DNA from: Escherichia coli
GTDB taxonomy: Bacteria; Pseudomonadota; Gammaproteobacteria; Enterobacterales; Enterobacteriaceae
DNA: 64,000 nucleotides
Strand: one strand, 5' to 3'
NCBI RefSeq assembly: GCF_003790525.1
Contig: NZ_CP033635.1
The translations under genes were made by a program, and so were the position numbers. Below, in pieces: positions 44,515 to 60,401 of the stretch. Each line of letters starts with the position of its first letter. Position 1 is the stretch's first letter. The notes beneath the pieces are model-generated. The model searched no databases. It had not been told where the DNA came from and saw only the letters and a list, made by a program, of their open reading frames with translations.

Positions 44515-44529
44515 TTACCTTAAAGGTAT
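44515..44529. promoter_or_regulatory. Operator-like palindrome TTACCttaaaGGTAt upstream of integrase
   Basis: Member of the recurring TTACC-N5-GGTAA motif family. Confidence 0.4.
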
Positions 44530-44571
44530 ACTCTCATACCGTCATGAAAATGGTTTCTATACGGGTGAATT

Positions 44572-45822
44572 GTGCTTACCGATACAAAATTAAAGAACCT
44601 CAAGCCACAGGACAAACTGTACAAAGTTTCCGATCGTGACGGGCTGTATGTAGCTGTGCTTACGTCAGGTACGGTCTCGTTTCGCTATGACTACCGTATC
44701 AACGGTCGCCGCGAAACACTGGTAATCGGGCAGTATGGGCGTGACGGTATCAGCCTGGCAGAAGCGCGAGAAGAACTGATTGCTGCAAAGAAGCTGCTTA
44801 AAGCAGGCCAGTCGCCGGCTGCGGCTAAACGTGACGGTATCAAAAAGATTCGTGGTGCCGAGACGTTTGCGGTACATACCGACAGTTATATGAAACACGT
44901 CATCCTGGCTGAAAGTACCCGCGCAATGAAGCAGGCAGTGATCGACCGTGACATACTTCCTGTTCTTGGCAACAAAATGATGACTGAAATTACCACATCG
45001 ATGGTTCGTGATTTGTGTGACCGGATTGTCGAACGCGGTGGTCGGGCAACAGCAGTACAGGCCAGGGAGATCATTAGCAGCGTATACCGTCACGCCAATG
45101 ACCGTGGTCATGGTTTGTTTAATCCTGCGGCTGACATTAAACCTTCGTCTATCGCCATATTTAAACCACGAGAGCGAACACTGACACCAGAAGAAATTGG
45201 TCTGTTCTTCCGCACGCTGGATGCCATTGGTGCTATGGGCACTATGAAAATGGCTTTAAAGCTGGTGCTTATCACTATGGTTCGTAAAGGCGAATTCACC
45301 AATGCAACGTGGGACGAAATAGATTTTAAAAAATGGACATGGACAATTCCTTCAGACCGCATGAAGGGAAGCCGGGCGCACGTTATTTACCTGCCAAAAC
45401 AGGCACAGGATATATTGGTTGGGTTGCAGATGTGCGCTGGTGGAAGTGAATATCTGGTTCCTGGTCGTTACAATTTCCGGAAGCCATTATCTAATGCCGC
45501 ACTGAACTCTCTGATCGACAGAACGGTGAAAATAATAAATGAAGATGGTGAGCATATTCAGGGCTTCACCGTACACGATATGCGCCGTACAGCCAGTACG
45601 TTGTTGCATGAGGCTGGTTATCCTTCAGACTGGATTGAAAAGGCTCTGGCACATGAGCAGAAAGGTGTGCGCGCCGTATATAACAAAGCGGAATACGCCA
45701 GACAGCGCGCCTACATGTTGCAGCAGTGGGCCGATATGATTGATTCCTGGATTAACGGGGAGCATACGGATCTAATTCCGTTCTCCCCGTCGAAGTTTGA
45801 GAAGTGGATGGCGGGGGAATAA
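44572..45822 (+). CDS. Tyrosine-type phage integrase (P4-like family)
   Basis: 416-aa ORF MLTDTKLKNLKPQDKLYKVSDRDGLYVAV..., C-terminal HDMRRTASTLL and catalytic-region motifs; GTG start. Confidence 0.85.
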   Translation: MLTDTKLKNLKPQDKLYKVSDRDGLYVAVLTSGTVSFRYDYRINGRRETLVIGQYGRDGISLAEAREELIAAKKLLKAGQSPAAAKRDGIKKIRGAETFAVHTDSYMKHVILAESTRAMKQAVIDRDILPVLGNKMMTEITTSMVRDLCDRIVERGGRATAVQAREIISSVYRHANDRGHGLFNPAADIKPSSIAIFKPRERTLTPEEIGLFFRTLDAIGAMGTMKMALKLVLITMVRKGEFTNATWDEIDFKKWTWTIPSDRMKGSRAHVIYLPKQAQDILVGLQMCAGGSEYLVPGRYNFRKPLSNAALNSLIDRTVKIINEDGEHIQGFTVHDMRRTASTLLHEAGYPSDWIEKALAHEQKGVRAVYNKAEYARQRAYMLQQWADMIDSWINGEHTDLIPFSPSKFEKWMAGE

Positions 45823-45825
45823 CGT

Positions 45826-46020
45826 TTAATAGTTCTGCTGATTTTCTTCCATCTCTGCTTCTGCTGCCAGTGATTCAATTTTGTTTTCGAATATTGCTGA
45901 CAGTGTTGCAAATTCAGCATCAGTGACAGCGGGAATTGGAACAAACCTGATCCCGCTGTGTGCAAGCATGTTTGCAGTTTCAAGGCATTTTCTTAAATCT
46001 GCTGGTGATGCCCTGTTCAT
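45826..46020 (-). CDS. Hypothetical small acidic protein
   Basis: Internal Met of ORF 45826..46140 positioned right after methylase stop; weak support. Confidence 0.2.
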   Translation of the reverse strand: MNRASPADLRKCLETANMLAHSGIRFVPIPAVTDAEFATLSAIFENKIESLAAEAEMEENQQNY

Positions 46021-46679
46021 GCAGCACGCTCCCGCCCCTGGTTGTCTGTTGGTGACAGCGGAGAATTGCTGAATGCATTTGTTAATCCGCCAATATCCAA
46101 CGCGTATCCAGGGTGTAGTTGCACTGCCGAGTTTTCGCACTGATTACCCCAAACATCGAAGCCATGAGACGACTGGCGGGCGAACAGTTCAATGCGAGAA
46201 ACATCGCCTAACAATTGCACAAGTTTTTCACGAACGACATCTGGTTTTCTTGAGTGCTCAAGCCGCGGTGCGGTAAATGACTGAACGATCCCTGCATTAA
46301 TGCGCGGAGGTAGTTTTCCCTTTACCGCAAACAGGCAATCTTCACTATTGGCGCGGGTCATGTGTCCCATACCCATAACCAGTTTATCTGGTTGTCGACT
46401 ACCACATTTTATCCACGTGAAGCCCTTCATGGTCATAAGACGAAATCCCCAGGCTTCAACAACTTTTAGTGCTTCGAGTGGTTGTGTTGGCACCCACCAC
46501 ATGGCCAACAGACAGTTTTCAGCGGCCAAATCCCACACAGGAAGGCGGCAGATATCCAGCACACTCATAACTGGATATTTAAAACCGGCACCGCGATTAC
46601 CATCTGCGGCTTTGTCCCGGTATACCCAGGGTGGATCTGCATAGATTAGTGTGTATTTCTTAGTCATAAACCACCCCAC
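46017..46679 (-). CDS. DNA N6-adenine methyltransferase (MT-A70-like, orphan)
   Basis: 220-aa ORF with DPPW motif (YTLIYADPPWVYR); no adjacent restriction endonuclease recognised. Confidence 0.7.
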   Translation of the reverse strand: MGWFMTKKYTLIYADPPWVYRDKAADGNRGAGFKYPVMSVLDICRLPVWDLAAENCLLAMWWVPTQPLEALKVVEAWGFRLMTMKGFTWIKCGSRQPDKLVMGMGHMTRANSEDCLFAVKGKLPPRINAGIVQSFTAPRLEHSRKPDVVREKLVQLLGDVSRIELFARQSSHGFDVWGNQCENSAVQLHPGYALDIGGLTNAFSNSPLSPTDNQGRERAA

Positions 46680-47068
46680 AACATCCTATGCCGCCATAGT
46701 CGCCACGGCGAAGGCCGTTACCTTTTGTGATACATTGGTCCCTGCGAACCGCGATCCTTGCACGCTCAACATCACCAGAAGCAACATCCATACACTGAAG
46801 CCAAAGGTGAGCGGCAATGCGGAACTGCCCTTTTTTCTCTCTTTCAATCGCGCGTTTTTCGATCTCTATCGCCGCAGGAGTAACGGCGACAATCTTTGAC
46901 GGACTGCGCATTGAAACCTTGTTCATGTGATATTTTTCAAGTCGGCTTAACTTTCTCACTTAATCCAACCCTCTCTGAAAATTAATGCCAGCAGATAAAG
47001 CCATGCTGAAACAGAGGCCAGGAATAAGTACCATCCTGACCATTTGCTCCAGTGCCTTAGCAGCACAC

Positions 47069-47317
47069 TCATGCAGCGTTGCTCACAGGACGATATACAC
47101 GTTGCTGAACAGGAGGCTTTTTACCCTGGAACTCTGCCGGGCTTGCTGCCTGACGTTCATCAAGCCAACGCTCAACTTCATCACGGTTCCATGCGCAGCG
47201 TTTATCGGTGATATACCAGCGTTTAGGAAATTCCCCTGCGCGCTCCATACGGTCGATAGTGCTCCATGACAGTGGCACCACCGCCAGGAGTTCCTTCTTA
47301 CCTAATGCACCTTTCAT
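47069..47317 (-). CDS. AlpA-family phage regulator / excisionase-like
   Basis: 82-aa ORF with ...STIDRMERAGEFPKRWYITDKRCAWNRDEVERWL... Confidence 0.55.
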   Translation of the reverse strand: MKGALGKKELLAVVPLSWSTIDRMERAGEFPKRWYITDKRCAWNRDEVERWLDERQAASPAEFQGKKPPVQQRVYRPVSNAA

Positions 47318-47366
47318 AAATACCTCTCTTGGTTGCAGTGCGGCGCGCGTGGCGCCGCGGTGGTGG

Positions 47367-48248
47367 TTACATAGATGTTTCGTTTAATTCTTCCCGACGA
47401 ACGCTGTAAACGTCGGTGGCTTTTGCCAGCAGTTCGTCATCATCTGAAAGTTTTTGTGCAATGTATTTGTAAGCCTTATCCAGTTCGGAGACAGTGCTGT
47501 AATTCATCGCTGCGCTGGTAAAGGCCATCAGCATTTCTTCTGGCTCACGGCTATCCGCTTTACGCGTTTGCTCATCAGGCTTTTTCACTGATTTAGCGTT
47601 GATCAGACTGTTCATTCCCGCAGCCGTAGTCATTTGCGGAGTAATGTCTCGCTCAACGCGCGGTGCCGTTTCCTGTAATTCGTCAGGGGTGTAAACACCG
47701 AGAAGTACATCAGGAGCGTGCAGGCGAGCCCATCGTTTCGTGCAAAGATATGCAAGTTGCTGGCGCGGATCCTGTTCCCACAATGGAGAGTTACGCACTC
47801 CTGCTTGCGCCATACTGATGGTAAGCTCACGTGGTTCTGCTTCTCCTTTAAGAACTGCTGACACAGTTACCGTCAGATTCGGTGATTTATCTGTTTTGCC
47901 GTTAACATTCGACCAGTCACCGCTCCAGCGATAATTCAGGCGTGTCGCCAGCAGGCTGGAAGAGGATACGACCGCGTTTACCAACTGTGCTTCGTAGCCT
48001 AACGTTCCGTTTACCACATGCGTTTTCTGCGCCACGGCGAAAGGGTTCATTCCCCACTGTGCCGCCTGCATGGTCACCGCCAGGCAATCGGCAGGTTTGC
48101 CTTCAAGATGTTTCGGTACAGTCGCTTTGCTTTGTGACATCAACTCCGCGAAACGCACCAGTTGATTCATACCCTCGGGGCTGAAGATTGCAGCAGCAGT
48201 GCCTACAGTTGCGCCTGGTTGTGATGTGATTGCGATATCATTGCTCAT
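47367..48248 (-). CDS. Single-strand annealing protein (Bet/RecT-like)
   Basis: 293-aa ORF with QAAQWGMNPF segment resembling lambda Bet; directly downstream of exonuclease-like gene. Confidence 0.5.
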   Translation of the reverse strand: MSNDIAITSQPGATVGTAAAIFSPEGMNQLVRFAELMSQSKATVPKHLEGKPADCLAVTMQAAQWGMNPFAVAQKTHVVNGTLGYEAQLVNAVVSSSSLLATRLNYRWSGDWSNVNGKTDKSPNLTVTVSAVLKGEAEPRELTISMAQAGVRNSPLWEQDPRQQLAYLCTKRWARLHAPDVLLGVYTPDELQETAPRVERDITPQMTTAAGMNSLINAKSVKKPDEQTRKADSREPEEMLMAFTSAAMNYSTVSELDKAYKYIAQKLSDDDELLAKATDVYSVRREELNETSM

Positions 48249-49066
48249 ACGTACATATCCTGTTTACGTGCCCAGTCAGGGCGTTTAATAATTTCCACTC
48301 CGCCCCATTCATCGTTGATGCGGCATTCGTGATAGGTATTCAGATCCCGGCGGAACAGAGCGTGCCCGGCATCGACATCCTGCGCATCCAGCTCGAACAC
48401 GCGTACCGGATACCGACCACAATCAATGCTTTCGCTCACGGCAAGAAAGAAAAAACCATGCGGCTGACCAGTAACCATCATTGCGCCTTCGCGGTACATT
48501 GCGTCCTGCACGTGGTAGCGGAATTCCTCGATGTGGCGTGCAAAACGGTCCATATCTGCAACCTTTTTCACGTCGACGATCACGTTGTGCTCGTTCAGCC
48601 ATTTGTCTGGACGAATTCGGCACAACTCCCCCGTCTCTTCATCGTTCCAGTACATTGATGCTTCGCAGTAACCAGGTGCTTCCAGCATCCAGCGTGCCGC
48701 CGGGTGAGCCATTGCGCTATCACGCATCAGCTCCAGTTTCCGCCACTGCTCGGCATCAAGTACCGTAATCCCCATATCCGCCACATCACGAAGAAATTCC
48801 TCTTCGTCAGCTTTACCTTGTTTCGTCCGACGATCGAATTTCGGTGAAACAATGAAGCGTTTGTCGAACTCTCCAGGCTCCAGAAGCAGACAGTGCAATG
48901 CGGTTCCCATATCCAGTGCAGACTTTTTCTCTTCGTCTTCTGGTGCTGCCTGAACCCATTTAAGAAGCGCCGGATTCTTGGCAACCATGTCCAGTTGCGA
49001 CTTACTCACGCCGTCACCGGCGTGGTAGTCTTCGTTGCTGATGTCGAAATAAATTCCCGGTTTCAT
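48245..49066 (-). CDS. Putative PD-(D/E)xK recombination exonuclease
   Basis: 273-aa ORF with D...IVDVKKV motif, overlapping start/stop with annealase gene. Confidence 0.5.
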   Translation of the reverse strand: MKPGIYFDISNEDYHAGDGVSKSQLDMVAKNPALLKWVQAAPEDEEKKSALDMGTALHCLLLEPGEFDKRFIVSPKFDRRTKQGKADEEEFLRDVADMGITVLDAEQWRKLELMRDSAMAHPAARWMLEAPGYCEASMYWNDEETGELCRIRPDKWLNEHNVIVDVKKVADMDRFARHIEEFRYHVQDAMYREGAMMVTGQPHGFFFLAVSESIDCGRYPVRVFELDAQDVDAGHALFRRDLNTYHECRINDEWGGVEIIKRPDWARKQDMYV

Positions 49067-49377
49067 GCCGCGTCCCTCTGCCCATCAAGCTGATCAGCCA
49101 GATCCCAGCGGGCGATAATTGCCATTGCCTCGCGCCGGTAGGCATCCATTAGTTCTTCGAACTCAGGGCTGTCTTTAGCGGCCTCCAGTACTTCCTGGCG
49201 AACGCCTTTAACTGTTACAACGTCGAAAGTTGATGCCAGTTGATGAAGCCGGATACTCTCAATCAGTTCAACTTGTCGGTCATATAGCTGTTCTGACAGA
49301 CGGTAGTCCTTGTCGAATGCCAGCATGATTTTTTGAAGATTTTTCTGCTGATTAACGTTCATTATCAGCCCTCCCAT
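49063..49377 (-). CDS. Hypothetical early protein
   Basis: 104-aa ORF, first gene of leftward operon, overlapping stop with exonuclease gene. Confidence 0.4.
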   Translation of the reverse strand: MGGLIMNVNQQKNLQKIMLAFDKDYRLSEQLYDRQVELIESIRLHQLASTFDVVTVKGVRQEVLEAAKDSPEFEELMDAYRREAMAIIARWDLADQLDGQRDAA

Positions 49378-49526
49378 ATCTCGTTATCGTTGGCCACATC
49401 GCGAGCTTCTTTGCTGACGAAAGCCCACTTAATGCCTTCCTGTAAGGTGCGGAACTTCCAGCTCATGAATCCGCATGCAGTAACGCAGTACCAACCGTTG
49501 ATGATTTTCCACTGCATAACTTGTTA

Positions 49527-49603
49527 CCTCGGTCTGTTACCGTTGAGGTAATAATTATGCGTATATGGTTTGATGTCAATAGATATGAGTTAAAAAAATT
49601 ACC
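49527..49603. promoter_or_regulatory. OL-like operator pair (two perfect TTACC-N5-GGTAA palindromes)
   Basis: TTACCgttgaGGTAA at 49527-49541 and TTACCcgttaGGTAA at 49589-49603, between leftward early operon and repressor gene. Confidence 0.5.
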
Positions 49604-49670
49604 CGTTAGGTAATCGAATAGGCAATAAAAAAGCCGCCATAAGGCGGCTTACTTACTGAAAAATATGGTT

Positions 49671-50255
49671 TTATTGTTTGTTTTTTTCGTTCTGGTTGAT
49701 GACAAATTCAATGTAACTTTCGATCTTTGCTTTCTCGGTTTCGGGTAACAATGCGTAGCGCGAGCGATCATAGTTGATGGTCGCAGGGTCATGCGGATGA
49801 ATCAGTAGTTCATATCCGTGACGCCCGAATGCAGATGCAACATTCTCCAGGGTGGAAATGGAAACGCTGACCTCATTGTTTAACAGGCGGCTTATTGTCA
49901 CCTGGGCGACGCCGGATGCGCGGTGAAGTTTTCCCTGAGTTGAAAGGTCGCGGCTTTCACTCATCCAGCGTTCCAGGTTGTGAGCCGCCAGCTGACCTAT
50001 ATCACTCGGGCCGACAGGCTGAAAACCCTCCTGAGAAAGCGAGCGATCAATATCAAGCCAGTTACGGGGTTTATTGGCGGCAGCTTCAATTTTTCGCGCA
50101 ACCTGGTCGCCGATAACCTTCTTGCCAAGAGCCCAGCGGTTTACCAGATTTGCCTGAGTTCCAAGTTTTTCTGCCATCCGCGTCTGAACACCATTGAATT
50201 CACGGTCGATCAAGTCGTTGAGATTTTGCCTGCGGACGTCCTGGATACTTTTCAT
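49671..50255 (-). CDS. Prophage repressor (two HTH regions)
   Basis: 194-aa ORF divergent from cro-like gene; HTH-like segments QTRMAEKLGTQANLVNRWALGKK and ASGVAQVTISRLLNNE. Confidence 0.55.
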   Translation of the reverse strand: MKSIQDVRRQNLNDLIDREFNGVQTRMAEKLGTQANLVNRWALGKKVIGDQVARKIEAAANKPRNWLDIDRSLSQEGFQPVGPSDIGQLAAHNLERWMSESRDLSTQGKLHRASGVAQVTISRLLNNEVSVSISTLENVASAFGRHGYELLIHPHDPATINYDRSRYALLPETEKAKIESYIEFVINQNEKNKQ

Positions 50256-50310
50256 TTTCTGGAAAATCGCCTCATATATGAATCAGTAGATGATTCAATT
50301 TAAAGCAATA

Positions 50311-50373
50311 TTACCCAACAGGTAAATGCACCTCATGGGTAACTATCCTTGATTTTTGTTACCTTATGGGTGA
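50311..50373. promoter_or_regulatory. OR-like operator cluster between repressor and cro-like genes
   Basis: TTACCcaacaGGTAA (50311-50325), weak gcACCtcatgGGTAA (50328-50342), TTACCttatgGGTgA (50359-50373); promoter-like TTGTTA-17-TATTAT overlaps. Confidence 0.5.
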
Positions 50374-50409
50374 ATATTTATTATCTGAAATAAATATCAG
50401 GCAATAGCT

Positions 50410-50640
50410 ATGAGCGATAACGGACATTTCGATTTCAAAAAGCACTGGCTTGCACTTACTCCGGATGAGCGTGAAGCCTTCGCACAGGAAGCCGGAACGA
50501 CGAGTCACTATATCCAGACTCACTTAACAGGTAAGCGCAAAATGCCAGGTAAAGTATTGATGAATGGGCTTTTTAAAGCCTGTAAAACAAGACAATGGCT
50601 GCGCTCAAAAGCAGAACTGGCATACTTCTTCTACTCATGA
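50410..50640 (+). CDS. Cro-like early regulator
   Basis: 76-aa ORF divergent from repressor; followed by terminator. Confidence 0.45.
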   Translation: MSDNGHFDFKKHWLALTPDEREAFAQEAGTTSHYIQTHLTGKRKMPGKVLMNGLFKACKTRQWLRSKAELAYFFYS

Positions 50641-50662
50641 TATCCAGCTACAACCCTCTGTA

Positions 50663-50684
50663 GACCGCCACCCGGCGGTCTTTT
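50663..50684 (+). terminator. Intrinsic terminator after cro-like gene
   Basis: gaccgcc-accc-ggcggtc followed by tttt. Confidence 0.5.
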
Positions 50685-50695
50685 CATATCTATTC

Positions 50696-50710
50696 GTACC
50701 TCAAAGGTAA
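50696..50710. promoter_or_regulatory. Operator-like palindrome gTACCtcaaaGGTAA
   Basis: Motif family member immediately after the cro terminator. Confidence 0.35.
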
Positions 50711-50788
50711 TAAAAAACCAAATCTGGTTGATCAAATTTTCCAATTGTGCAAAATAGCCAATATCAATAACAAAAAGGTGCGGAAAAA

Positions 50789-51001
50789 TTGAAGATAGTA
50801 ACCAGAATGGAGGCCGCAAAAGCCGGGTTAAATCGCTATTTCACAGGAAAGCGGTGCCGTCACGGCCATCTCTCTGAAAGGTATGTTCTGAACGGAACAT
50901 GTGTTGAATGTGCAATGAATAGCGCCAACCGCCATCGTAATGAATTTGCTTGTGCACTAAAGAGTGCAAGAGGGGAAACCTATGGCAAGCAGCTGGATTA
51001 A
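50789..51001 (+). CDS. Small zinc-ribbon-like protein
   Basis: 70-aa ORF with C-x-H-G-H ... C-x2-C; TTG start in track, true start uncertain. Confidence 0.35.
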   Translation: MKIVTRMEAAKAGLNRYFTGKRCRHGHLSERYVLNGTCVECAMNSANRHRNEFACALKSARGETYGKQLD

Positions 51002-51812
51002 GGTTGAAGTTATCACTCCTGATAAACCTGAAATTTTTCAGATAGCAGAAATTCTGGGTATTGATCCAGATGCTGTTCTTGGAAAGCTGGTTCGTATATG
51101 GGCATGGGCTGACCAGCAAACAATAGACGGTAACGCTGGCAGCGTTACAAAAGGAGTACTTGATAGACTCGCTTTTATTACAGGATTTGCTGACGCCCTC
51201 ATTAGCGTCGGATGGCTTGCTTATCATGACGGCAAACTAATTCTTCCAAACTTTGAGCGACACAATGGAGAATCATCGAAAAAACGTGCACTTACGAATA
51301 GAAGAGTGGCAGAGCATCGAAAACGAGTAACGCAAAAAGTAACGCCAACAGCGTTACAAAAGGAGTTACCAGAGGAAGAGGAAGAGGAAGATATATATAA
51401 AACCCCACACATAGCGCACGTGCGCGAGGGGGCTACGACCAGTGAAGCGAACGGTATGCCGTTGCAGGTGGCTGAACCTGAATTTCTGGATGGCCTGAGT
51501 GAACCCATCGGGAAATTTCCGATGACCGATGACTGGCATCCGTCGCCGGATTTTCGACGGCGTGCTGCGCTGTGGGGAACGGCCCTGCCGGAACCGGAAT
51601 TTACACCTGCTGAACTTGCTGCATTCCGGGATTACTGGATGGCTGAGGGCAAAGTGTTCACGCAGGTTCAGTGGGAACAAAAATTCGCCAGGCACGTAAA
51701 TCATATCAGGGGAAAATCAAAAAACGCCGGGAAAAGCGATGAGCTTGACTGGAATAACACTGACTGGATAGAAGGGGTGTGGGATGAAATCAACTCCAGA
51801 ACTTCTCAATGA
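50982..51812 (+). CDS. Replication initiation protein (O-like)
   Basis: Start MASSWIKVEV after GAGGGG RBS; acidic EEEEEED linker; overlaps start of P-like gene. Confidence 0.45.
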   Translation: MASSWIKVEVITPDKPEIFQIAEILGIDPDAVLGKLVRIWAWADQQTIDGNAGSVTKGVLDRLAFITGFADALISVGWLAYHDGKLILPNFERHNGESSKKRALTNRRVAEHRKRVTQKVTPTALQKELPEEEEEEDIYKTPHIAHVREGATTSEANGMPLQVAEPEFLDGLSEPIGKFPMTDDWHPSPDFRRRAALWGTALPEPEFTPAELAAFRDYWMAEGKVFTQVQWEQKFARHVNHIRGKSKNAGKSDELDWNNTDWIEGVWDEINSRTSQ

Positions 51813-52597: not shown

Positions 52598-52612
52598 TTA
52601 CCTGTAGGGTAA
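52598..52612. promoter_or_regulatory. Operator-like palindrome TTACCtgtagGGTAA
   Basis: Perfect motif family member. Confidence 0.4.
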
Positions 52613-52659
52613 CAAAATATTCTAAACTCTATTGATTTCGTGTCTTATGTGGTTTTTAA

Positions 52660-52674
52660 TTACCTCAGAGGTAA
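52660..52674. promoter_or_regulatory. Operator-like palindrome TTACCtcagaGGTAA 3 nt upstream of ATG
   Basis: Perfect palindrome overlapping the translation initiation region of the 52678 gene. Confidence 0.4.
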
Positions 52675-52677
52675 ATC

Positions 52678-53808: not shown

Positions 53809-53914
53809 GCAATATCGACAAGCGGCCTCTACGTGACAAGCTGTCACCGTATGACACAGAAGAGATGCTTGAGGCTATGCGTATTTTTCTGTAAGAACAG
53901 GGAGGTGAGCAAAA

Positions 53915-54232
53915 ATGACGATCACAAAACAACGGGTAGAAGAAATCATATCCCGCATTGAAATGTATGGGCATGGCGCAGGGTATACCGCCGAAGAGGT
54001 TTATGACCTGGCTGTACTGGCGCTGAATTTATCAAATATCGCAAAACTCAAGCGATACGAGCTTGATATGGATGGTTGTGACTCGTTCGGTCAGGATTGT
54101 GGCGCTGACATGACTGAAGATTCTGATGGCGATTATGTCCTGTTTGATGACGTGGTTAAGTTGTTTGAGTTTGATACAACCACTCAGAAGATAGAAAGCC
54201 CAGCAAAGGAGGCAACCAGTGAGCAAGATTGA
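53915..54232 (+). CDS. Hypothetical phage protein
   Basis: 105-aa acidic ORF. Confidence 0.35.
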   Translation: MTITKQRVEEIISRIEMYGHGAGYTAEEVYDLAVLALNLSNIAKLKRYELDMDGCDSFGQDCGADMTEDSDGDYVLFDDVVKLFEFDTTTQKIESPAKEATSEQD

Positions 54233-54773
54233 CTATCAGGCACTGCGTGAAAAGGCAGAGAAAGCAACGTGTGGTGTATGGTCGATCGAATATGGAGAGA
54301 GCCGATTTGATGGTGATGATGCGTTAATTCACCGTGAAGTTGCTGGATATATTCCCATTTGCAGAATTGAAGGAGCGCATCCTGAAAGCGGTTTCGATGA
54401 AGATTTCCAAACTGAACAGCAGGCCAATGCTGAATTCATCGCCGCAGCCAATCCGGCTACTGTGCTGGCGCTTCTGGATGAACGGGAAAGAAACCAGCAA
54501 TACATCAAACGCCGCGACCAGGAGAACGAGGATATTGCGCTAACGGTAGGGAAGCTGCGCGTTGAGCTGGAAGCCGCAGAGAAGCGCATAGCAGAACTGG
54601 AAGCGCGGGAAATACTGCTCCCTGAACGTAGCAGCATGCTTCATCGAACAGATTTTCACGATGATTACCAAACGGTAATGGCATACAAAGTTTCTGAAGT
54701 CATCGATGCAATCCGCGCTACTGGCATTTGCATCAAAGGAGACGCAGGAGAGCAAAACGATGAAAAACCGTAA
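54219..54773 (+). CDS. Ead/Ea22-like protein
   Basis: 184-aa ORF MSKIDYQALREKAEKATCGVWSIEYGE, resembles lambdoid Ea22-like proteins. Confidence 0.5.
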   Translation: MSKIDYQALREKAEKATCGVWSIEYGESRFDGDDALIHREVAGYIPICRIEGAHPESGFDEDFQTEQQANAEFIAAANPATVLALLDERERNQQYIKRRDQENEDIALTVGKLRVELEAAEKRIAELEAREILLPERSSMLHRTDFHDDYQTVMAYKVSEVIDAIRATGICIKGDAGEQNDEKP

Positions 54774-54936
54774 AGCAAAATTACTTCTTTTATCGCGTTC
54801 GACGGGGTACGAGAAGCTACCAATCAGCAATCACAAACGGGCGGTGATCGGCATGTTTGGTAGGGTGGTATTCGCATTTAACTATAAACCCACCGCGTCG
54901 CGGAACAGACGAGAGAAGGGGTACGCAGTGCGATGA
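54760..54936 (+). CDS. Small basic protein, paralog 2 (MKNRKAK family)
   Basis: Starts with the same ATGAAAAACCGTAAAGC inside the 3' end of the Ea22-like gene. Confidence 0.3.
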   Translation: MKNRKAKLLLLSRSTGYEKLPISNHKRAVIGMFGRVVFAFNYKPTASRNRREKGYAVR

Positions 54937-55124
54937 AAAACCGTAAGGCAAAGATGCTGATAGCAAAGCCCGGGCAGCGTATCCGTATCTCAAATCGGCT
55001 TGTTATTTACTATAGATATCTGGGTTTTAGGGGGTGTTCCTCTATTCGTTTTTACGGTGTCTGGCGAAACAGAAGCGCAGCACAAAACCGCTGGAAAAAC
55101 CACTTTCGCACTAAAGGAGAGTGA
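54933..55124 (+). CDS. Small basic protein, paralog 3 (MKNRKAK family)
   Basis: 63-aa ORF, same 5' sequence, ends SAAQNRWKNH like paralog 1. Confidence 0.35.
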   Translation: MKNRKAKMLIAKPGQRIRISNRLVIYYRYLGFRGCSSIRFYGVWRNRSAAQNRWKNHFRTKGE

Positions 55125-55125
55125 T

Positions 55126-55875
55126 ATGACCACTTTCACCGACAAAGAACTGATTAAAGAAATCAAAGAGCGTATCAGCAGCCTGGACGTTCGAGACAAT
55201 ATTGAACGCCGGGCTTATGAAATTGCACTGGCATCGCTGGAAGCAGATCCAGTTGCTTATATTTTCAAACATCCGGCCGGGAAATTATTCTGGGCTTTGA
55301 CGGATGAAAGCAATAAAGAGCAATCGGACGTTATTCCTGTTTATGCCGCCCCTCCAGTGCCAGTAGTACCTGAAGAAAAACCAATGCCTAACCCTCTTAA
55401 AATGTACGCGGTCGATGCTGTTGCCGCTATTGCAGAGGTGAGAGGCTGGAACGCCTGCCGCGCCGCCATGCTTCAGGCCGAACCTGTAAGTAATAGTGAT
55501 GAGTTACCGCTGGACTATCTGCAAGGACACAAAGACGGCCTGGAGTGGGCTGCACAATTGGCAGAAGCCAATCATCCGCAAACAGGTGACTGGTTGTACG
55601 ACGACCCAATCGATCTTGCCAGGGCGATTCGCAAAGGTCCTGATATGCCTACTGTTCAGGCTGGCAACTATCCGGTAACTCCGGATGGTTGGATAAGCTG
55701 TAGTGAGCGAATGCCCGCTCAAGATGATTGGATTTTTATTTATTCAAAGCACGGCGAGTATATGGCAGGACAGGTACAAGGGGAATACGTGGAGTTGAGC
55801 GACGGCACTTTATCGTGGTTAGGGAACGCCTTGTACTGGATGCCTCTACCGGAACCGCCGCAGGAGGTTAATTGA
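55126..55875 (+). CDS. DUF551-family phage protein
   Basis: Start MTTFTDKELIKEIK after GGAG RBS; C-terminal YWMPLPEPP signature. Confidence 0.55.
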   Translation: MTTFTDKELIKEIKERISSLDVRDNIERRAYEIALASLEADPVAYIFKHPAGKLFWALTDESNKEQSDVIPVYAAPPVPVVPEEKPMPNPLKMYAVDAVAAIAEVRGWNACRAAMLQAEPVSNSDELPLDYLQGHKDGLEWAAQLAEANHPQTGDWLYDDPIDLARAIRKGPDMPTVQAGNYPVTPDGWISCSERMPAQDDWIFIYSKHGEYMAGQVQGEYVELSDGTLSWLGNALYWMPLPEPPQEVN

Positions 55876-56159
55876 TGGTCTCCTTCGCGAAATATACGAT
55901 TATTGACTGGATAGCATTCATTCAGGTTTTGCTCATCTGGTTTTATATGGCTTACAGGAGTGGACAGTGGATTGTCAGTGTAGCCTGTAGCAATGGATGG
56001 CGTTGGTGGAACCGAAAGAATAAAAAAGCGCTGGCCTTGGCTTCGTTTTACGAAGCATTCAATCTTAACAGTCTTCAGCCTGGTTCTGTCGTTGTAGTCA
56101 CCACTCAAAGCGGCATGACGATACAAATTCACAAGCCAAAGGAGGAAGGTCGTGGCTAA
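55872..56159 (+). CDS. Hypothetical small membrane protein
   Basis: 95-aa ORF with hydrophobic N-terminal segment. Confidence 0.3.
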   Translation: MMVSFAKYTIIDWIAFIQVLLIWFYMAYRSGQWIVSVACSNGWRWWNRKNKKALALASFYEAFNLNSLQPGSVVVVTTQSGMTIQIHKPKEEGRG

Positions 56160-56433
56160 CCTGCAACTTGCCGTTAAAGGTGAATACTTCGATGCCATGA
56201 TTCGCGGGGAGAAAACGGAAGAGTATCGCCTGTGTAATGACTACTGGAATAAGCGAATTATGTTCCGCGAGTATGACCGCCTGATTATCACAAAGGGATA
56301 TCCGAAGCGCGACGATTCCAGCCGCAGAATTGACGTCCCGTATGACGGATATGAAATCAAGACAATCACACATCCGCACTTCGGCGATAAACCGGTAAAG
56401 GTGTTCGCTATAAAGGTGAATATTGATGGCTAA
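56152..56433 (+). CDS. ASCH-domain-like protein
   Basis: 93-aa ORF MANLQLAVKGEYFDAMIRGEKTEEYR. Confidence 0.4.
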   Translation: MANLQLAVKGEYFDAMIRGEKTEEYRLCNDYWNKRIMFREYDRLIITKGYPKRDDSSRRIDVPYDGYEIKTITHPHFGDKPVKVFAIKVNIDG

Positions 56434-56764
56434 ATCAGCAGCAGAGCGCAAAGCCGCGCAGCGCGCTCGGCAGTCCGCCGCCGGTGAGCGCAAAATTGAA
56501 CTGGTGCTGGATAAGCAGGAGCAGGAAATGCTGGCGCGGAACTGCGCCGCCCGGCGCCCTGGTCACGATCCCTATGAAATGGCCGAGTACATCGCGCTGC
56601 TGATCCGCCAGGATGATGCACGTGTGCGCGGGCGTATAAAATCGATCAGTAGAAAACGTTGCGGTAAGTGCGGCGAGAGAGTTCCAGTTAATTCATGTCC
56701 GTGTAATGGTGACTCGCAATGCTGGGTGACTAAAGGCTGGCATGAAACGAAATTAATAGTGTGA
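56423..56764 (+). CDS. Cys-rich hypothetical protein upstream of terminase
   Basis: 113-aa ORF with basic N-terminus and C-terminal CGKCG...CPCNGDSQC. Confidence 0.4.
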   Translation: MMAKSAAERKAAQRARQSAAGERKIELVLDKQEQEMLARNCAARRPGHDPYEMAEYIALLIRQDDARVRGRIKSISRKRCGKCGERVPVNSCPCNGDSQCWVTKGWHETKLIV

Positions 56765-56882
56765 CATGTCACGAGTAGATTATGCATGATGAATTTGATG
56801 GGTTTTGAATACTGCCGCCAACTATGGCGGCTTTATTTTGCATGGTACTATTACCACAACGGTAACTATTACCACGGTGGTT

Positions 56883-57479
56883 ATGATGCCTGCTGAACCT
56901 AAAACCTATAAACGCAAATCAACGCAATTTAAGCCGCTCACAGCAATGCAGGAGGCTTATTGCCAGTCATACATCAAAACGCCTGAAAACCAGACTCAGG
57001 CAGCGATTAACGCAGGATTCTCCCCAAATACAGCGGCAGTTAAAGCCAGTGTCATGATGCGCGATGAACGCATTCAAAAACGGATTGCCGAGTTGATGGA
57101 GGAGCGCAACAAACGAATGCGCGTCAGTGCTGATTACGTTCTCATGCGCCTGGTGGAGATCGACCAGATGGACGTGATCGATATCCTCAACGACGATGGG
57201 AGCCTTAAACCAATCCGTGAGTGGCCGAAAATCTGGCGCACTACGCTTAGTGGCTTTGATCTGTCATCGACCATCATGAACATGAACGAGGATTCGATAG
57301 AGACAATCCTCAAAAAAATTAAATGGCCTGACAAGGTGAAGAACCTCGAACTGATTGGTAAGCACGTCGACGTTAACGCGTTCAAAGAACGTCTGGATGT
57401 TAATGTGAATGTGACAATTGCTGATCGCATAGCAGCAGCCAGGAAGCGACTCAAAGAACGTCAGGATGGTAATCAGTGA
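56883..57479 (+). CDS. Terminase small subunit
   Basis: Positioned immediately before terL with GTGA stop/start overlap; start inferred at MMPAEPKTYKRK. Confidence 0.5.
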   Translation: MMPAEPKTYKRKSTQFKPLTAMQEAYCQSYIKTPENQTQAAINAGFSPNTAAVKASVMMRDERIQKRIAELMEERNKRMRVSADYVLMRLVEIDQMDVIDILNDDGSLKPIREWPKIWRTTLSGFDLSSTIMNMNEDSIETILKKIKWPDKVKNLELIGKHVDVNAFKERLDVNVNVTIADRIAAARKRLKERQDGNQ

Positions 57480-58950
57480 CAGATACAGCGTTATCTCCTG
57501 AAGAGCAGTTGATCGAGGATATTGCAGGGTTCACTCACGATCCGCTTGGCTATGCCCTCTATGCGTTCCCGTGGGGGAAGAGGGTACTGAACTGGCACAT
57601 GCCACCGGCCCACGTCAGTGGCAGGCTGATGCGTTCCGAGAGATACGTGATCACCTGCAGAATCCAGAGACGCGCTATCAGCCGCTTATGCTGGCACGCG
57701 CTTCTGGTCACGGTATTGGTAAATCCGCATTCATCTCAATGCTGATCAACTGGGGCATGTCCACTTGCGAGGATTGTAAGGTCGTGGTGACCGCCAACAC
57801 CGACAACCAGCTACGAACTAAGACCTGGCCGGAAATTATCAAGTGGTCGAACCTTGCTATCACGAAAGACTGGTTTACCTGTACCGCTACCGCGATGTAC
57901 AGCAATGATCCTGGGCACGACAAGCGGTGGCGAGCTGACGCAATCCCTTGGTCTGAGCACAACACTGAGGCATTCGCCGGACTACACAACGAGCGTAAAC
58001 GCATCATCGTGGTATTTGATGAAGCGTCGAACATTGCGGATCTGGTGTGGGAAGTTGCCGAGGGTGCGCTAACGGACGAAGACACTGAGATTATCTGGGT
58101 GGCGTTCGGAAACCCTACACGTAACACCGGACGTTTCCGCGAATGTTTCCGCAAATATAAACACCGCTGGAAAACTGCGCAGATTGACAGCCGAACGGTG
58201 GAAGGCACTAACAAACAGCAGTTGCAGAAATGGGTTGATGACTACGGGGAAGACAGCGACTTCGTTAAAATCCGTGTGCGCGGCATATTCCCTGATGCAT
58301 CTGAATTGCAGTTTATCCCTACCGGTCTTACTGATGAGGCAATGAAACGGGTGGTGACCGCTGCGCAGGTGGCGCATGCTCCGGTGATAATCGGTGTTGA
58401 CCCGGCATATTCAGGCGTTGATGACGCGGTGATATACCTGCGGCAGGGGCTACACAGTAAGGTGCTGTGGACTGGCAACAAGACTACCGACGATCTGATT
58501 ATGGCGAAGCGTATCGCTGACTTTGAAGACCAGTATCAGGCTGACGCGGTGTTCATCGACTTCGGTTACGGAACCGGTTTGAAGTCAATCGGTGATGGCT
58601 GGGGACGTACATGGCAACTTGTTCCGTTCGGTGGCGCGTCTACTGACCCGCAGATGCTCAACAAGCGTGGGGAGATGTTCAACTCATGCAAGACATGGCT
58701 GAGGCTCGGCGGCATGCTGGATGACCAGGAAACTGCAGACGACCTGTCGGCGGCAGAGTACAAAGTTCGTGTGGACGGTAAAATCGTTATCGAACCGAAG
58801 GAAGATATCAAAGAGCGGCTTGGGCGTTCGCCTGGTAAAGGCGATGCGCTACTGCTGACGTTTGCTTTCCCGGTGTCAAAGCGCCTGCGACTTCCCGGGC
58901 AGCAGAACCAGCAAGGCAAGGCGCTTACCGAGTACGATCCATATGCTTAG
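57476..58950 (+). CDS. Terminase large subunit, apparently frameshifted in a G5 run (57573-57577)
   Basis: Coupled GTG start 57476 gives 32 codons in one frame; Walker-A (GHGIGKS) body continues in another frame from 57571; adding one G restores a single ORF. Confidence 0.7.
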
Positions 58951-59765
58951 TCTTTATTTTTATCCTCGAAACCTGATAATCCAGATAGAACACCAAAGTT
59001 ATTAAAAACGTTTGGCTTACCAGATTTTAATCCGGATAAGTTGTGTTGCTCCAAAAAGTTACTAATTGTTTGGCCGTTGCCAAGTGCAAGGCTTTTTATT
59101 TGAGATTTTTCAGGGTATTTGAGTTTGTATTCGTCGAAATCATTTTGGAGGGTCTTATATGCCTCATTCATTCTTCCAAGAGTTTCCGATATCTCTTTTA
59201 ATGAATGATTTAGAGCTGCTAACTGAGCACTGGCGGATCTCAATTCGTCATCTTTAGCTTTCAACTCGGCAGTCAATTCACCCATACTATTCTTTGATCG
59301 AATAATCTCTTCTTTCATCTCTTGGATGTCTTTTTCCGCGCCAGTCTTAACTTTGTCGTATGTAACATCTTTTTTAGCCAATAACCTCTGCAGTCTTGTT
59401 TCACGCTGGATTTTTCTTGCCTTCAGGTGATTTTCGATTGAGTCATTATTATCAAGAGGCTTTGCTTGCCATACGTTAATGATATTGTTTACCCATGGTA
59501 ATAGGCAGCAGATAGCAATTACAGATAAGCATGGATAAAACATAACAGTTTTCCATGTGCTGTTATCTGAGATATATGAAATTTTATCTATTATGTTTGA
59601 TTTGCTAAAAAATAGATAAAGAATTGATTTCCAGTTGAAGGCGCACCAGGACATAACAAAAGCACCAAGCACAGGGTTTTTGGCTCGATTCACGGCAGTA
59701 TTGGCAGTAGATAAAAACAGCTCTTTGAACGATTCAAACATGCTAATTACCTTGAAGTTTTTCAT
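58947..59765 (-). CDS. AT-rich moron: membrane protein with coiled-coil C-terminal region
   Basis: Start inferred at MKNFKVISMF; two hydrophobic segments then Lys/Glu-rich heptad-like region; opposite strand to structural genes. Confidence 0.55.
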   Translation of the reverse strand: MKNFKVISMFESFKELFLSTANTAVNRAKNPVLGAFVMSWCAFNWKSILYLFFSKSNIIDKISYISDNSTWKTVMFYPCLSVIAICCLLPWVNNIINVWQAKPLDNNDSIENHLKARKIQRETRLQRLLAKKDVTYDKVKTGAEKDIQEMKEEIIRSKNSMGELTAELKAKDDELRSASAQLAALNHSLKEISETLGRMNEAYKTLQNDFDEYKLKYPEKSQIKSLALGNGQTISNFLEQHNLSGLKSGKPNVFNNFGVLSGLSGFEDKNKD

Positions 59766-59769
59766 GATT

Positions 59770-59784
59770 ATACCTTTAAGGTAA
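59770..59784. promoter_or_regulatory. Operator-like palindrome next to moron start, overlapping a TATAAT element
   Basis: On moron strand reads TTACCttaaaGGTATAATcATG. Confidence 0.4.
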
Positions 59785-59801
59785 TTTGCGGTCATCAAGC
59801 A

Positions 59802-59825
59802 AAAAAATGCCCGGCGAACCGGGCG
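59802..59825 (-). terminator. Intrinsic terminator downstream of phage tRNA
   Basis: Minus strand gcccgg-ttcg-ccgggc followed by attttttt. Confidence 0.5.
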
Positions 59826-59987
59826 AACTGGAAGCAATGAGTTATGCCTTCCGTGGCTGTACGGGTTTACAGCATGAAGTCATCGCAATGGCGTCCTGCT
59901 GTAAAAAGGGCGGTGATAGTCCTTCAAGGGAAACCATCACCGCCAAGCCCCTGGAACTTCTGGCATCACGGTCCTTAGGCGTGATTC

Positions 59988-60064
59988 TGGCGCGGCATGC
60001 AGGATTCGAACCTGCGACCAACCGCTTAGAAGGCGGTTGCTCTGTCCAACTGAGCTAATGCCAC
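59988..60064 (-). tRNA. tRNA-Arg (anticodon UCU), phage-encoded
   Basis: 77-nt cloverleaf folded by hand: acceptor GTGGCAT/ATGCCGC, anticodon loop CTTCTAA, T-loop GCAGG-TTCGAAT-CCTGC, encoded CCA. Confidence 0.85.
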
Positions 60065-60386
60065 AACGCTGAGAGCACTTAGCCTGTTAAGGCACCACAC
60101 TTTGTCGCGGCTCCATAAATGCTCTCATCGTTGCACCCTCGTCTCTTCCGAGGTGTCACACCGAATCGCCGGGATGGTGAATCCCCGTGCGCGGAATAAA
60201 ACCGCTCGACTTGCACATTCCGGCTACCTGGTTCGTTTGCCCGAGCAAGGGAGGGTGCCCCTTAAACGTATCCAGACCGCTATCGGCGCATGTGCCATAC
60301 ACCGTACTGCTCAAAATAAAAGCTCACCCCACCTGTTCAATTTAACGACAAGCCAGTCAGGTTAATAACCGGAATGAACTCTTTGC

Positions 60387-60401
60387 TTACCTGAAAGGTA
60401 A
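60387..60401. promoter_or_regulatory. Operator-like palindrome TTACCtgaaaGGTAA upstream of head genes
   Basis: Perfect motif family member, followed by TAATAAT. Confidence 0.4.

What the first reader, a model, noticed from the sequence alone, without database searches (positions are those of the whole stretch)
44515..60401. A 15-bp palindrome TTACC-N5-GGTAA recurs at about 11 intergenic sites across the prophage and nowhere obvious in the host part
Perfect copies at 49527, 49589, 50311, 52598, 52660 and 60387; one-mismatch copies at 44515, 50359, 50696 and 59770; a weaker one at 50328. A fully specified 10-nt palindrome should occur by chance far less than once in 64 kb. All copies lie between genes: before the integrase, flanking the repressor gene, after the cro terminator, before a nin-region nuclease, before the AT-rich moron and before the head genes. 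The repressor-flanking clusters look like a classical OL/OR, so the simplest reading is a repressor operator, but sites outside the immunity region are unusual for lambdoid coliphages and resemble the dispersed stoperator arrangement known from mycobacteriophage L5. Several copies overlap -10-like hexamers or sit 3-5 nt from a start codon.
Basis: seen in the sequence. Interest (0 to 1): 0.68.

Follow-up and report, generated by a model that had tools for sequence, protein, structure and literature searches.

The report
Repressor operators scattered across a prophage
The repeated palindrome is the binding site of the prophage's own repressor, placed at the start of nearly every phage operon; this layout was already annotated for the related Salmonella phage epsilon15, so it is real but not new.

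Summary
TTACC-N5-GGTAA occurs 7 times perfectly (0.03 expected), all in the prophage part of the window. There are also 5 one-mismatch copies and 1 two-mismatch copy there. Two coordinates were off by 10 bp and two sites before the terminase gene were missed.

The prophage starts at attL in guaA (44365). It is not lambdoid but a phiV10/epsilon15-like podovirus (genus Uetakevirus). Its 194-aa repressor is 100% identical to phiV10 Rep and homologous to the crystallised SPC32H Rep (5D50).

The same palindrome is the top 5-N-5 palindrome in all four Uetakevirus genomes counted de novo, one per host genus. All eight genomes checked carry 8-11 perfect copies. None lies inside a gene, and they sit at the same gene-relative positions.

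Half-sites are 98% conserved across lineages, against about 55% for spacers and flanks. The epsilon15 GenBank record already labels seven such sites, including dispersed ones, as repressor-binding.

The sites lie only in long operon-start gaps, often just after terminators. Several overlap sigma-70-like promoters. They are symmetric and absent from short intra-operon gaps, so they are promoter-associated operators, not L5-type stoperators.

Verdict: real, functional, already known in kind. Extras: a strict 62-bp operator pair bracketing two promoters, and a second conserved motif, CATATRTGGTT.

The parts
44365..44381 (+). attL core ATTGAGTGGGAATGATT at the 3' end of guaA; left end of the prophage
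   Evidence: Exact match to the attP/attB core reported for phage ZX5 (PMC9782041).
44515..44529 (.). Operator-like site F (TTACCTTAAAGGTAT, 1 mismatch), 42 nt before the int start and 66 nt after a terminator
   Evidence: The same site, always with GGTAT, lies 42 nt before int in all 8 genomes.
49537..49551 (.). OL-proximal operator (perfect); abuts or overlaps the -10 of PL
49551..49579 (-). PL-like promoter TTGACA-17-AATTAT (10/12 match) driving the leftward early operon
   Evidence: The -35 context CTATTGAC is conserved in all lineages.
49599..49613 (.). OL-distal operator (perfect), 62 bp from the proximal one
   Evidence: The spacing is 62 bp in 7 genomes and 63 bp in BUCT711.
49671..50255 (-). 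rep: 194-aa repressor with two HTH domains and no S24 peptidase domain
   Evidence: PDB 5D50 (SPC32H Rep), E=4e-42. 100% identical to phiV10 Rep. Pfam HTH_3 at residues 106-147, weak YdaS/HTH at 21-67.
50311..50325 (.). OR1 (perfect), the operator closest to rep
50328..50342 (.). OR2 (GCACCTCATGGGTAA, 2 mismatches), 17 bp from OR1
   Evidence: The same position holds a perfect site in epsilon15, SPC32H and BUCT711.
50359..50373 (.). OR3 (TTACCTTATGGGTGA, 1 mismatch), filling the spacer of PR
50349..50384 (+). PR-like promoter: the -35 TTGATT (50349-54) is conserved in all lineages; the -10 region is around 50372-50384
50410..50640 (+). cro-like 76-aa gene (PHROG 35, transcriptional repressor)
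50696..50710 (.). Site I (GTACCTCAAAGGTAA, 1 mismatch), 14 nt after the cro terminator and ahead of the replication genes
   Evidence: Conserved in phiV10, ZX5, Tyrion and BUCT711.
52598..52612 (.). Site J-distal (perfect), just after the terminator that follows the replication genes
52632..52660 (+). Promoter-like TTGATT-17-TTTAAT lying between the two J operators, with the same architecture as PL
   Evidence: Read from the sequence. The -35 TTGA is conserved in all 8 genomes.
52660..52674 (.). Site J-proximal (perfect), 62 bp from J-distal, containing the SD, 3 nt before the ATG of the DUF1064/resolvase-like gene
56851..56865 (.). Site A1 (perfect), 19 nt after the terminator of the gp49-like regulator gene
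Evidence: Annotated as repressor-binding in epsilon15 (12-27).
56869..56883 (.). Site A2 (TTACCACGGTGGTTA, 1 mismatch), 18 bp from A1 and 2 nt before the terS ATG
59767..59795 (-). Promoter-like ATGACC-17-TATAAT (10/12 match) for the AT-rich moron
59770..59784 (.). Site C (ATACCTTTAAGGTAA, 1 mismatch), overlapping the moron promoter's spacer and -10
   Evidence: Seen only in this prophage among the genomes checked.
60387..60401 (.). Site B (perfect), upstream of the gp3/portal/head operon
   Evidence: The homologous site lies 90 nt before gp3 in the seven annotated relatives, about 79 nt here because of a 15-bp deletion seen. Annotated as repressor-binding in epsilon15 (2931-2947).

Best explanation
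The palindromes are operators for the prophage's own repressor, Rep (49671-50255). Rep is the epsilon15/SPC32H-type repressor of Uetakevirus phages. The extended consensus is A-TTACC-ttWaa-GGTAA-T.

The genome is divided into short, terminator-bounded transcription units, and nearly every unit starts with one to three of these sites. In the lysogen, Rep is therefore predicted to silence each unit directly. This contrasts with lambda, where repression acts only at PL and PR.

At PL, PR, the 'nin-like' promoter (52632-52660) and the moron promoter, an operator overlaps the -10 or the spacer. There the mechanism is plain occlusion of RNA polymerase. At PL and the nin-like promoter, a second operator exactly 62 bp (about six helical turns) upstream brackets the promoter. 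The related Rep is reported to bind palindromic sites as a tetramer, so one tetramer probably holds both sites.

Induction is expected to go through a LexA-controlled antirepressor (Ant), because Rep has no autocleavage domain. Removing Rep would release all units at once.

Shown here: the existence, enrichment, position and conservation of the sites; Rep homology; the overlap with promoter-like sequences. Inferred: that Rep binds every site; the looping; and how the isolated sites upstream of the head, int and replication units act.
For: Enrichment: 7 perfect copies against 0.03 expected, all in the prophage.

Layout around rep: there are two OL sites and three OR sites. OR3 sits in the spacer of a promoter whose TTGATT -35 is conserved, and OL-proximal abuts the -10 of TTGACA-17-AATTAT.

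Rep identity: it matches PDB 5D50, the SPC32H repressor, at E=4e-42. Rep overexpression in ZX5 (identical Rep) cut holin and endolysin transcripts by more than 99.9% (PMC9782041). SPC32H Rep is described as binding palindromic DNA sites as a tetramer and being disassembled by Ant (PMC9638917).

Prior annotation: the epsilon15 GenBank and RefSeq records mark 7 of these sites as 'protein_bind: repressor', including those before terS, gp3, the tail fibre gene and the nin-like gene.

Distribution in relatives: TTACC-N5-GGTAA was the top 5-N-5 palindrome in each of the 4 genomes counted de novo (phiV10, epsilon15, Tyrion, BUCT711). Across all 8 Uetakevirus genomes from 4 host genera there are 8-11 perfect copies each. 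In the five genomes checked against CDS tables no perfect copy lies inside a gene. One phiV10 copy falls within the deposited terS CDS, but three relatives start terS 20 nt downstream of the homologous site. Intergenic DNA is only 6.5-17% of each genome.

Conservation: distances to start codons are fixed. Across 4 lineages the half-site columns are 98% identical, against 54% for the spacer and 56% for flanks.

[quoted passage not shown] It has TTACC-N4-GGTAA sites, and these flank its cI gene and occur nowhere else.
Against: No binding or expression data exist for this prophage, and I could not find any for the dispersed sites in any relative. The epsilon15 and SPC32H primary papers were not readable here.

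Sites B, F and I in the window, and D and E in relatives, lie about 40-65 bp upstream of the best -10 candidates rather than over them. Simple occlusion does not explain those sites. No convincing sigma-70 promoter is visible at the terS pair.

All Uetakevirus lineages share the same half-site, so a repressor/operator co-variation test was impossible within the genus.

The conservation figure carries some ascertainment bias, because the sites were chosen by motif match.
Confidence: 0.8

Rival explanations
1. L5-like stoperators: Rep bound at the dispersed sites blocks elongating RNA polymerase that reads through from upstream units, rather than blocking initiation.
For: Sites I, J-distal, A1/A2 and F lie 14-66 nt downstream of intrinsic terminators, where a roadblock could catch read-through. 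No clear sigma-70 promoter is visible at the terS pair. Rep, like the L5-type repressor, has two HTH-like domains (PMC9283540).
Against: The sites are symmetric, whereas stoperators are asymmetric and depend on orientation (PMC9283540). None lies in the 15-65 nt gaps inside operons; all are in operon-start gaps of 117 nt or more. Sites D and E in relatives have opposite-strand genes upstream, so there is nothing to read through. Several sites overlap promoter hexamers.
Confidence: 0.1
2. Architectural role: Rep tetramers bridge isolated operators over long distances. This would loop or compact the prophage, or raise the local Rep concentration for the immunity region, in the way the flanking FL/FR sites of phage 186 or lambda OL-OR looping do.
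For: The related Rep is reported to be a tetramer whose DNA-binding domain pairs come from different dimers (PMC9638917). A tetramer on a single operator would therefore have a free pair. The strict 62-bp phasing at two promoters indicates that paired binding matters.
Against: This is pure inference, with no data behind it. The isolated sites keep fixed distances to the adjacent start codons (42, 90 and 104-106 nt). That pattern fits a local, promoter-linked role better.
Confidence: 0.12
3. The dispersed copies are bound mainly by another phage protein that shares or overlaps the specificity, such as the 76-aa Cro-like protein or the gp49-like regulator.
For: Cro proteins classically share operators with their repressor. 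A Cro-like gene (PHROG 35) sits next to OR.
Against: This does not exclude Rep binding. The dispersed and immunity-region copies have the same core and the same extended consensus. The epsilon15 authors assigned them to the repressor. The gp49-like protein has no recognisable DNA-binding domain.
Confidence: 0.07
4. The palindromes are conserved linker sequences at module boundaries that promote recombination between mosaic phages. Alternatively, they form RNA hairpins that hide Shine-Dalgarno sequences.
For: Flanks diverge sharply on one side of sites B, E and J while the site itself is retained. Three sites contain the SD and end 2-4 nt before a start codon.
Against: A 15-bp identity is too short for efficient homologous recombination. 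Spacers vary freely while the half-sites are fixed, which is the signature of a protein-binding site. A 5-bp A/T-rich stem is very weak. With the predicted -10 positions, transcription would start inside the site, so the 5' half would not be in the RNA.
Confidence: 0.03

Closest known systems
Repressor (Rep)/operator system of Salmonella phages epsilon15 and SPC32H (genus Uetakevirus), with antirepressor Ant
   Same: The Rep is homologous (42% identity overall, with a much more conserved N-terminal DNA-binding domain; 5D50 E=4e-42). The TTACC-N5-GGTAA core is the same, and so is the OL/OR layout. The dispersed slots are the same too: terS, gp3, int and the nin-like gene here, plus the tail fibre and lysis genes in complete relatives. 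Seven such sites are annotated as repressor-binding in the epsilon15 record.
   Different: The host is E. coli and the Rep is the phiV10-type allele. There are two rather than three OL sites, and OR2 is degenerate. An extra site lies over the promoter of a moron specific to this prophage (59770). The ant region lies beyond the window.
Mycobacteriophage L5 (Cluster A) gp71 operators and stoperators
   Same: One repressor has many (more than 10) binding sites spread over the whole phage genome, all intergenic, and silences more than the early promoters (PMC9283540).
   Different: L5 sites are 13-bp, asymmetric and orientation-dependent, are bound by a monomer, and lie in short gaps inside operons where they stop elongation. 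Here the sites are 15-17-bp palindromes at operon starts and overlap promoters. The related repressor binds as a tetramer. No site lies in an intra-operon gap.
Lambda CI with OL/OR
   Same: Palindromic operators of about 17 bp. Three adjacent sites lie between divergent repressor and cro-like genes. One operator sits in the PR spacer and one abuts the PL -10. Cooperative or paired binding is likely.
   Different: Lambda operators are confined to the immunity region, and downstream genes are controlled by N and Q antitermination. CI is inactivated by RecA-stimulated autocleavage through an S24 domain, which Rep lacks. A Pseudomonas lambdoid phage with a Rep-like DNA-binding domain fused to an S24-type C-terminus keeps its TTACC-N4-GGTAA sites only at OL and OR.
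Streptomyces phage phiC31 repressor c and its conserved inverted repeats (CIRs). Global plasmid repressors such as IncP KorA are a similar case. The phiC31 comparison is from my own knowledge and was not checked here.
   Same: A single repressor recognises a 17-bp palindrome repeated at many intergenic positions and controls many separate promoters.
   Different: The proteins and sequences are unrelated and the hosts differ. This comparison was not tested with tools, apart from the KorA abstract seen.

Membership tests
Uetakevirus (epsilon15/SPC32H-type) Rep-operator system | Repressor homologous to SPC32H/epsilon15 Rep: two HTH domains and no S24 autocleavage domain | tested here: met
   5D50 E=4e-42 over residues 1-190. 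Pfam finds HTH domains only. 100% identical to phiV10 Rep and 42% to epsilon15 Rep.
Uetakevirus (epsilon15/SPC32H-type) Rep-operator system | Palindromic operator with core TTACC-N5-GGTAA (17-bp form ATTACC-N5-GGTAAT) | tested here: met
   The cores match the sites annotated 'repressor' in epsilon15.
Uetakevirus (epsilon15/SPC32H-type) Rep-operator system | Operator clusters on both sides of rep (OL with a 62-bp pair; OR with three sites spaced 17 and 30-31 bp) | tested here: met
Uetakevirus (epsilon15/SPC32H-type) Rep-operator system | Extra operators at the homologous operon-start positions (terS, gp3, int, nin-like gene) | tested here: met
   The distances to start codons are the same in the seven annotated relatives: 2 and 20 nt, 90 nt, 42 nt, and 3 and 65 nt. 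The window matches these except at gp3, where a 15-bp deletion shortens the distance.
Uetakevirus (epsilon15/SPC32H-type) Rep-operator system | Small antirepressor Ant under a LexA box, used for induction | not testable with these tools
   The ant/tail-fibre region lies beyond base 64000. In the closest complete relatives (phiV10, ZX5, TL-2011b) an ant-like gene with the LexA-type box CTGTATAAATATACAG is present.
Uetakevirus (epsilon15/SPC32H-type) Rep-operator system | Rep physically binds the sites | not testable with these tools
   Only indirect support: the authors' annotation, a literature summary of SPC32H Rep binding palindromic sites, and Rep overexpression silencing lytic genes in ZX5.
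L5-type stoperators | Asymmetric site whose orientation follows the direction of transcription | tested here: not met
   The site is a perfect palindrome, and the flanks are also symmetric on average. Definition taken from PMC9283540.
L5-type stoperators | Sites located in short intergenic spaces inside operons | tested here: not met
   In phiV10 and epsilon15 no gap of 15-65 nt carries a site, apart from the start of the linear epsilon15 record, which is the upstream region of terS. Otherwise sites occur only in operon-start gaps of 117 nt or more.
L5-type stoperators | Monomeric repressor that uses two domains on one site | not tested
   The homologous SPC32H Rep is described as binding DNA as a tetramer (PMC9638917). 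Nothing was measured here.
Lambda-type CI/OL-OR switch | Operators confined to the immunity region | tested here: not met
   8 of the 13 sites in the window lie outside the rep/cro region.
Lambda-type CI/OL-OR switch | Repressor with a LexA-like S24 autocleavage domain | tested here: not met
   Pfam finds no S24 domain, and the alignment with an S24-bearing cI diverges after the DNA-binding domain.

The most novel reading that the evidence does not exclude
The isolated operators sit about 40-65 bp upstream of the likely -10 of their units. These are B and I here (F before int is a further isolated site), and D and E in relatives. They may not act by occlusion. They could work together with the second conserved element CATATRTGGTT found in the same regions, as a two-part, previously undescribed promoter class. 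Alternatively, they could be anchor points that Rep tetramers bridge into long-range loops, silencing the whole prophage as one nucleoprotein structure.
Probability: 0.15. Interest if true: 0.5.

Novelty: already known. Interest (0 to 1): 0.22.

Why it matters
It shows how this common family of E. coli and Salmonella prophages stays silent. About 9% of complete E. coli genomes carry a close relative of its late region. One antirepressor-sensitive repressor sits at the head of almost every operon, rather than controlling a two-promoter switch followed by antitermination.

This is useful for annotation, because the motif marks operon starts and Uetakevirus prophages. It also helps predict homoimmunity, since all lineages share the half-site. 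It could guide the design of Rep-controlled expression modules.

It does not open a new question, because the type phage of the genus already carries this annotation.

Tried and rejected
- **Primary papers.** I tried to read the epsilon15 genome paper (DOI and PMC2698709) and the two SPC32H Rep/Ant papers (PMC3807360, PMC4983836). None is held.
- **Literature search for the motif.** Text searches for the motif string found nothing relevant.
- **Source genome.** I looked for the source genome to see the rest of the prophage. The best E. coli match was only 98.1% identical, so I used complete relatives instead.
- **Co-variation test.** I tried to ask whether divergent Reps go with different dispersed palindromes. 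This was impossible within the genus, because E. coli, Enterobacter, Klebsiella and Salmonella lineages (Rep down to 42% identity) all use TTACC-N5-GGTAA. Only an outgroup Pseudomonas cI gave a variant, with N4 spacing and sites confined to the immunity region.
- **Second motif as a Cro site.** I tested whether CATATRTGGTT marks the rep promoter, as a Cro-type site would. A 2-mismatch copy lies near rep in the window, but it is not conserved in other lineages.
- **gp49-like regulator.** Pfam gave no significant hit.
- **Moron protein.** PADLOC gave only weak coiled-coil-type matches.
- **Ideas rejected.** I rejected restriction or methylation target sites, because such sites would not be confined to intergenic DNA. 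I rejected a pac site, because the record start at terS is only a convention. I also rejected RNA hairpins, because the stem is too weak and the 5' half is probably not transcribed.

Full report
**The observation**

TTACCNNNNNGGTAA occurs 7 times perfectly in the 64-kb window, at 49537, 49599, 50311, 52598, 52660, 56851 and 60387. The expected number is 0.03, and no shuffle reached 7.

With one mismatch there are 17 matches against about 1 expected. Twelve lie in 44.4-64 kb. Five lie in the first 44.4 kb, and those five are all inside long ORFs.

The two-mismatch copy at 50328 is also real. All 13 prophage copies are intergenic, and the described contexts are correct.

**What the element is**

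The prophage begins at an attL core (44365-44381) at the end of guaA (core sequence from PMC9782041). It is about 97% identical to phiV10-like podoviruses such as HEMP4, TL-2011b and ZX5. These belong to the genus Uetakevirus, whose type phage is Salmonella phage epsilon15. So it is not a lambdoid phage in the strict sense.

The 194-aa protein encoded at 49671-50255 (minus strand) is 100% identical to phiV10 Rep and 42% identical to epsilon15/SPC32H Rep. It matches the crystallised SPC32H repressor 5D50 at E=4e-42. It has two HTH domains and no S24 autocleavage domain.

In ZX5, which has an identical Rep, overexpression abolished free phage and cut holin and endolysin transcripts by more than 99.9% (PMC9782041).

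**Already annotated**

The epsilon15 RefSeq record and the authors' own GenBank record carry seven 'protein_bind: repressor (lysogeny)' features. Their coordinates coincide with TTACC-N5-GGTAA copies. They include sites before terS, gp3, the tail fibre gene and the nin-like gene, not only sites next to the repressor gene.

The record marks only 7 of the 15 copies with one mismatch or fewer that I find in epsilon15. It appears to mark mainly copies that fit a stricter 17-bp form.

I could not read the epsilon15 or SPC32H papers. What I say about their text is therefore from memory or from secondary sources.

**Distribution and conservation**

An unbiased count of all 5-N(2-8)-5 palindromes was run on four genomes, one per host genus (phiV10, epsilon15, Tyrion, BUCT711). 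It put TTACC/5 first in each. A direct motif scan of all eight Uetakevirus genomes, from E. coli, Salmonella, Enterobacter and Klebsiella, found 8-11 perfect copies each.

In the five genomes checked against CDS tables, none of the perfect copies lies inside a gene, although intergenic DNA is only 6.5-17% of each genome. The one copy that falls within the deposited phiV10 terS CDS reflects an early annotated start codon.

The copies occupy the same 'slots' at fixed distances from start codons:
- two sites at terS, 2 and 20 nt before the ATG;
- one site 90 nt before gp3;
- one site between ant and the tail fibre gene;
- one site before the lysis cassette;
- one site 42 nt before int, always with GGTAT;
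- an OL pair;
- an OR triplet;
- one site after the cro terminator;
- a pair before the nin-like operon, 3 and 65 nt before the ATG.

Across four lineages, pairwise identity is 98% in the half-site columns, 54% in the spacer and 56% in the flanks. There is some ascertainment bias, because the sites were picked by motif match.

The extended consensus from 64 distinct instances is A-TTACC-ttWaa-GGTAA-T.

An outgroup adds independent support. [quoted passage not shown] It has TTACC-N4-GGTAA sites, and these flank its cI gene and occur nowhere else. This ties the domain to the half-site and shows that dispersal is the Uetakevirus-specific feature.

**Anatomy relative to transcription signals**

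- **PL.** TTGACA-17-AATTAT (49579-49551, minus strand; 10/12 match) ends on the first base of the proximal operator.
- **PR.** The -35 TTGATT (50349) is conserved in all lineages, and OR3 fills its spacer.
- **Nin-like promoter.** TTGATT-17-TTTAAT (52632-52660) again ends on the first T of the proximal operator. A second operator lies exactly 62 bp upstream, as at PL. The spacing is 62 bp at both places in every genome, apart from 63 bp at PL in BUCT711. The two modules align without gaps at 48 of 79 positions.
- **Moron promoter.** ATGACC-17-TATAAT (59795-59767, minus strand; 10/12 match) is overlapped by site 59770.
- **After terminators.** Sites at 50696, 52598, 56851 and 44515 follow intrinsic terminators by 14-66 nt.
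- **Gaps.** In phiV10 and epsilon15 the sites occur only in operon-start gaps of 117 nt or more, plus the terS upstream region. No 15-65 nt gap inside an operon and no convergent gap has one.

**Mechanism**

The best reading is that Rep represses almost every terminator-bounded transcription unit directly.

The related Rep is described as a tetramer whose DNA-binding domain pairs bind palindromic sites, and which the antirepressor Ant takes apart (PMC9638917). I therefore infer that one tetramer holds the 62-bp pairs, or the adjacent 17-18-bp pairs.

I also infer that LexA-controlled Ant releases all units together. A LexA-type box sits next to ant in relatives, but that region lies beyond this window.

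How the isolated upstream sites (B, F and I here) act is not explained by occlusion and remains open.

**Comparison with stoperators**

By the definition in PMC9283540, stoperators are asymmetric, orientation-dependent, bound by a monomer and located in short intra-operon gaps. Each of the three features I could test is not met here. The resemblance is limited to 'one repressor, many genome-wide sites'.

**Noticed in passing**

A second motif, CATATRTGGTT (palindromic form AACCATATATGGTT), lies on the transcribed strand in five of the operator-bearing regions. In phiV10 all 5 plus-strand hits are intergenic, against 0.6 expected per strand. In the head and tail-fibre regions it is followed after 5 nt by GGTAAT. 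In the lysis region it is followed by TGTATAAT, and at the nin-like promoter by the proximal operator. Its binding factor is unknown, and it is not conserved at the rep promoter.

**Verdict**

This is a real, functional, strongly conserved repressor operator set, but one already recognised in the type phage of the genus. It ranks low on novelty and has modest value for annotation.

Noticed in passing
window 52644-52654, 60432-60442, 50717-50727 (2 mismatches), 49560-49570; L003 (phiV10) 3308, 20921, 24739, 33135, 35116: A second conserved motif, CATATRTGGTT (palindromic form AACCATATATGGTT), lies on the transcribed strand in the same intergenic regions as the operators. It is followed after 5 nt by GGTAAT, by a -10-like TATAAT, or by the proximal operator. 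In phiV10 all 5 plus-strand hits are intergenic, against 0.6 expected per strand. It is not annotated in epsilon15, and its binding factor is unknown.
   Followed up: partly
window 49537/49599 and 52598/52660: Two operator pairs with a strictly conserved 62-bp spacing each bracket a CTATTGA(-35)-17-(-10) promoter. The spacing is the same in all 8 Uetakevirus genomes, apart from 63 bp at one pair in BUCT711, and the two modules are 48/79 identical without gaps. This suggests one Rep tetramer clamps both sites.
   Followed up: partly
window 58947-59765 (minus strand): An AT-rich moron (GC 36%) encodes a 265-273-aa protein of PHROG 4780 (unknown function), which looks like a membrane plus coiled-coil protein by eye. 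Its promoter is overlapped by operator 59770, so it is predicted to be off in the lysogen, which is unusual for a moron. Relatives carry a different, shorter gene here with no operator.
   Followed up: partly
window 44505-44555: The int-proximal site always has GGTAT instead of GGTAA. It is embedded in a larger inverted repeat (GTGACGGTA ... TACCGTCA) that the epsilon15 record annotates as an RNase III site next to an Int arm-type site. This points to possible post-transcriptional control of int.
   Followed up: no
L009 (Pseudomonas phage PseuP_224) 10906, 11768, 11807: A lambdoid siphophage cI has a Rep-like N-terminal DNA-binding domain fused to an S24-type C-terminus. It uses TTACC-N4-GGTAA operators, and these occur only on either side of cI. 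The half-site is the same, with a different spacing and no dispersal.
   Followed up: partly
L003 20830-20850, and homologous positions in L002, L004, L005, L006 and L007: A LexA-type box (CTGTATAAATATACAG) lies between the ant-like gene and the Rep operator in the ant/tail-fibre divergent region of relatives. The equivalent region of this prophage lies beyond base 64000.
   Followed up: no
window 3448, 17469, 29842, 31409, 39317: The host part has 5 one-mismatch copies where about 1 is expected. All are inside long ORFs and none is perfect. This is probably a codon or composition effect.
   Followed up: partly
window 28001-30000: G+C drops to 0.44 in the host part, against about 0.52-0.56 around it. 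This may be a small island.
   Followed up: no
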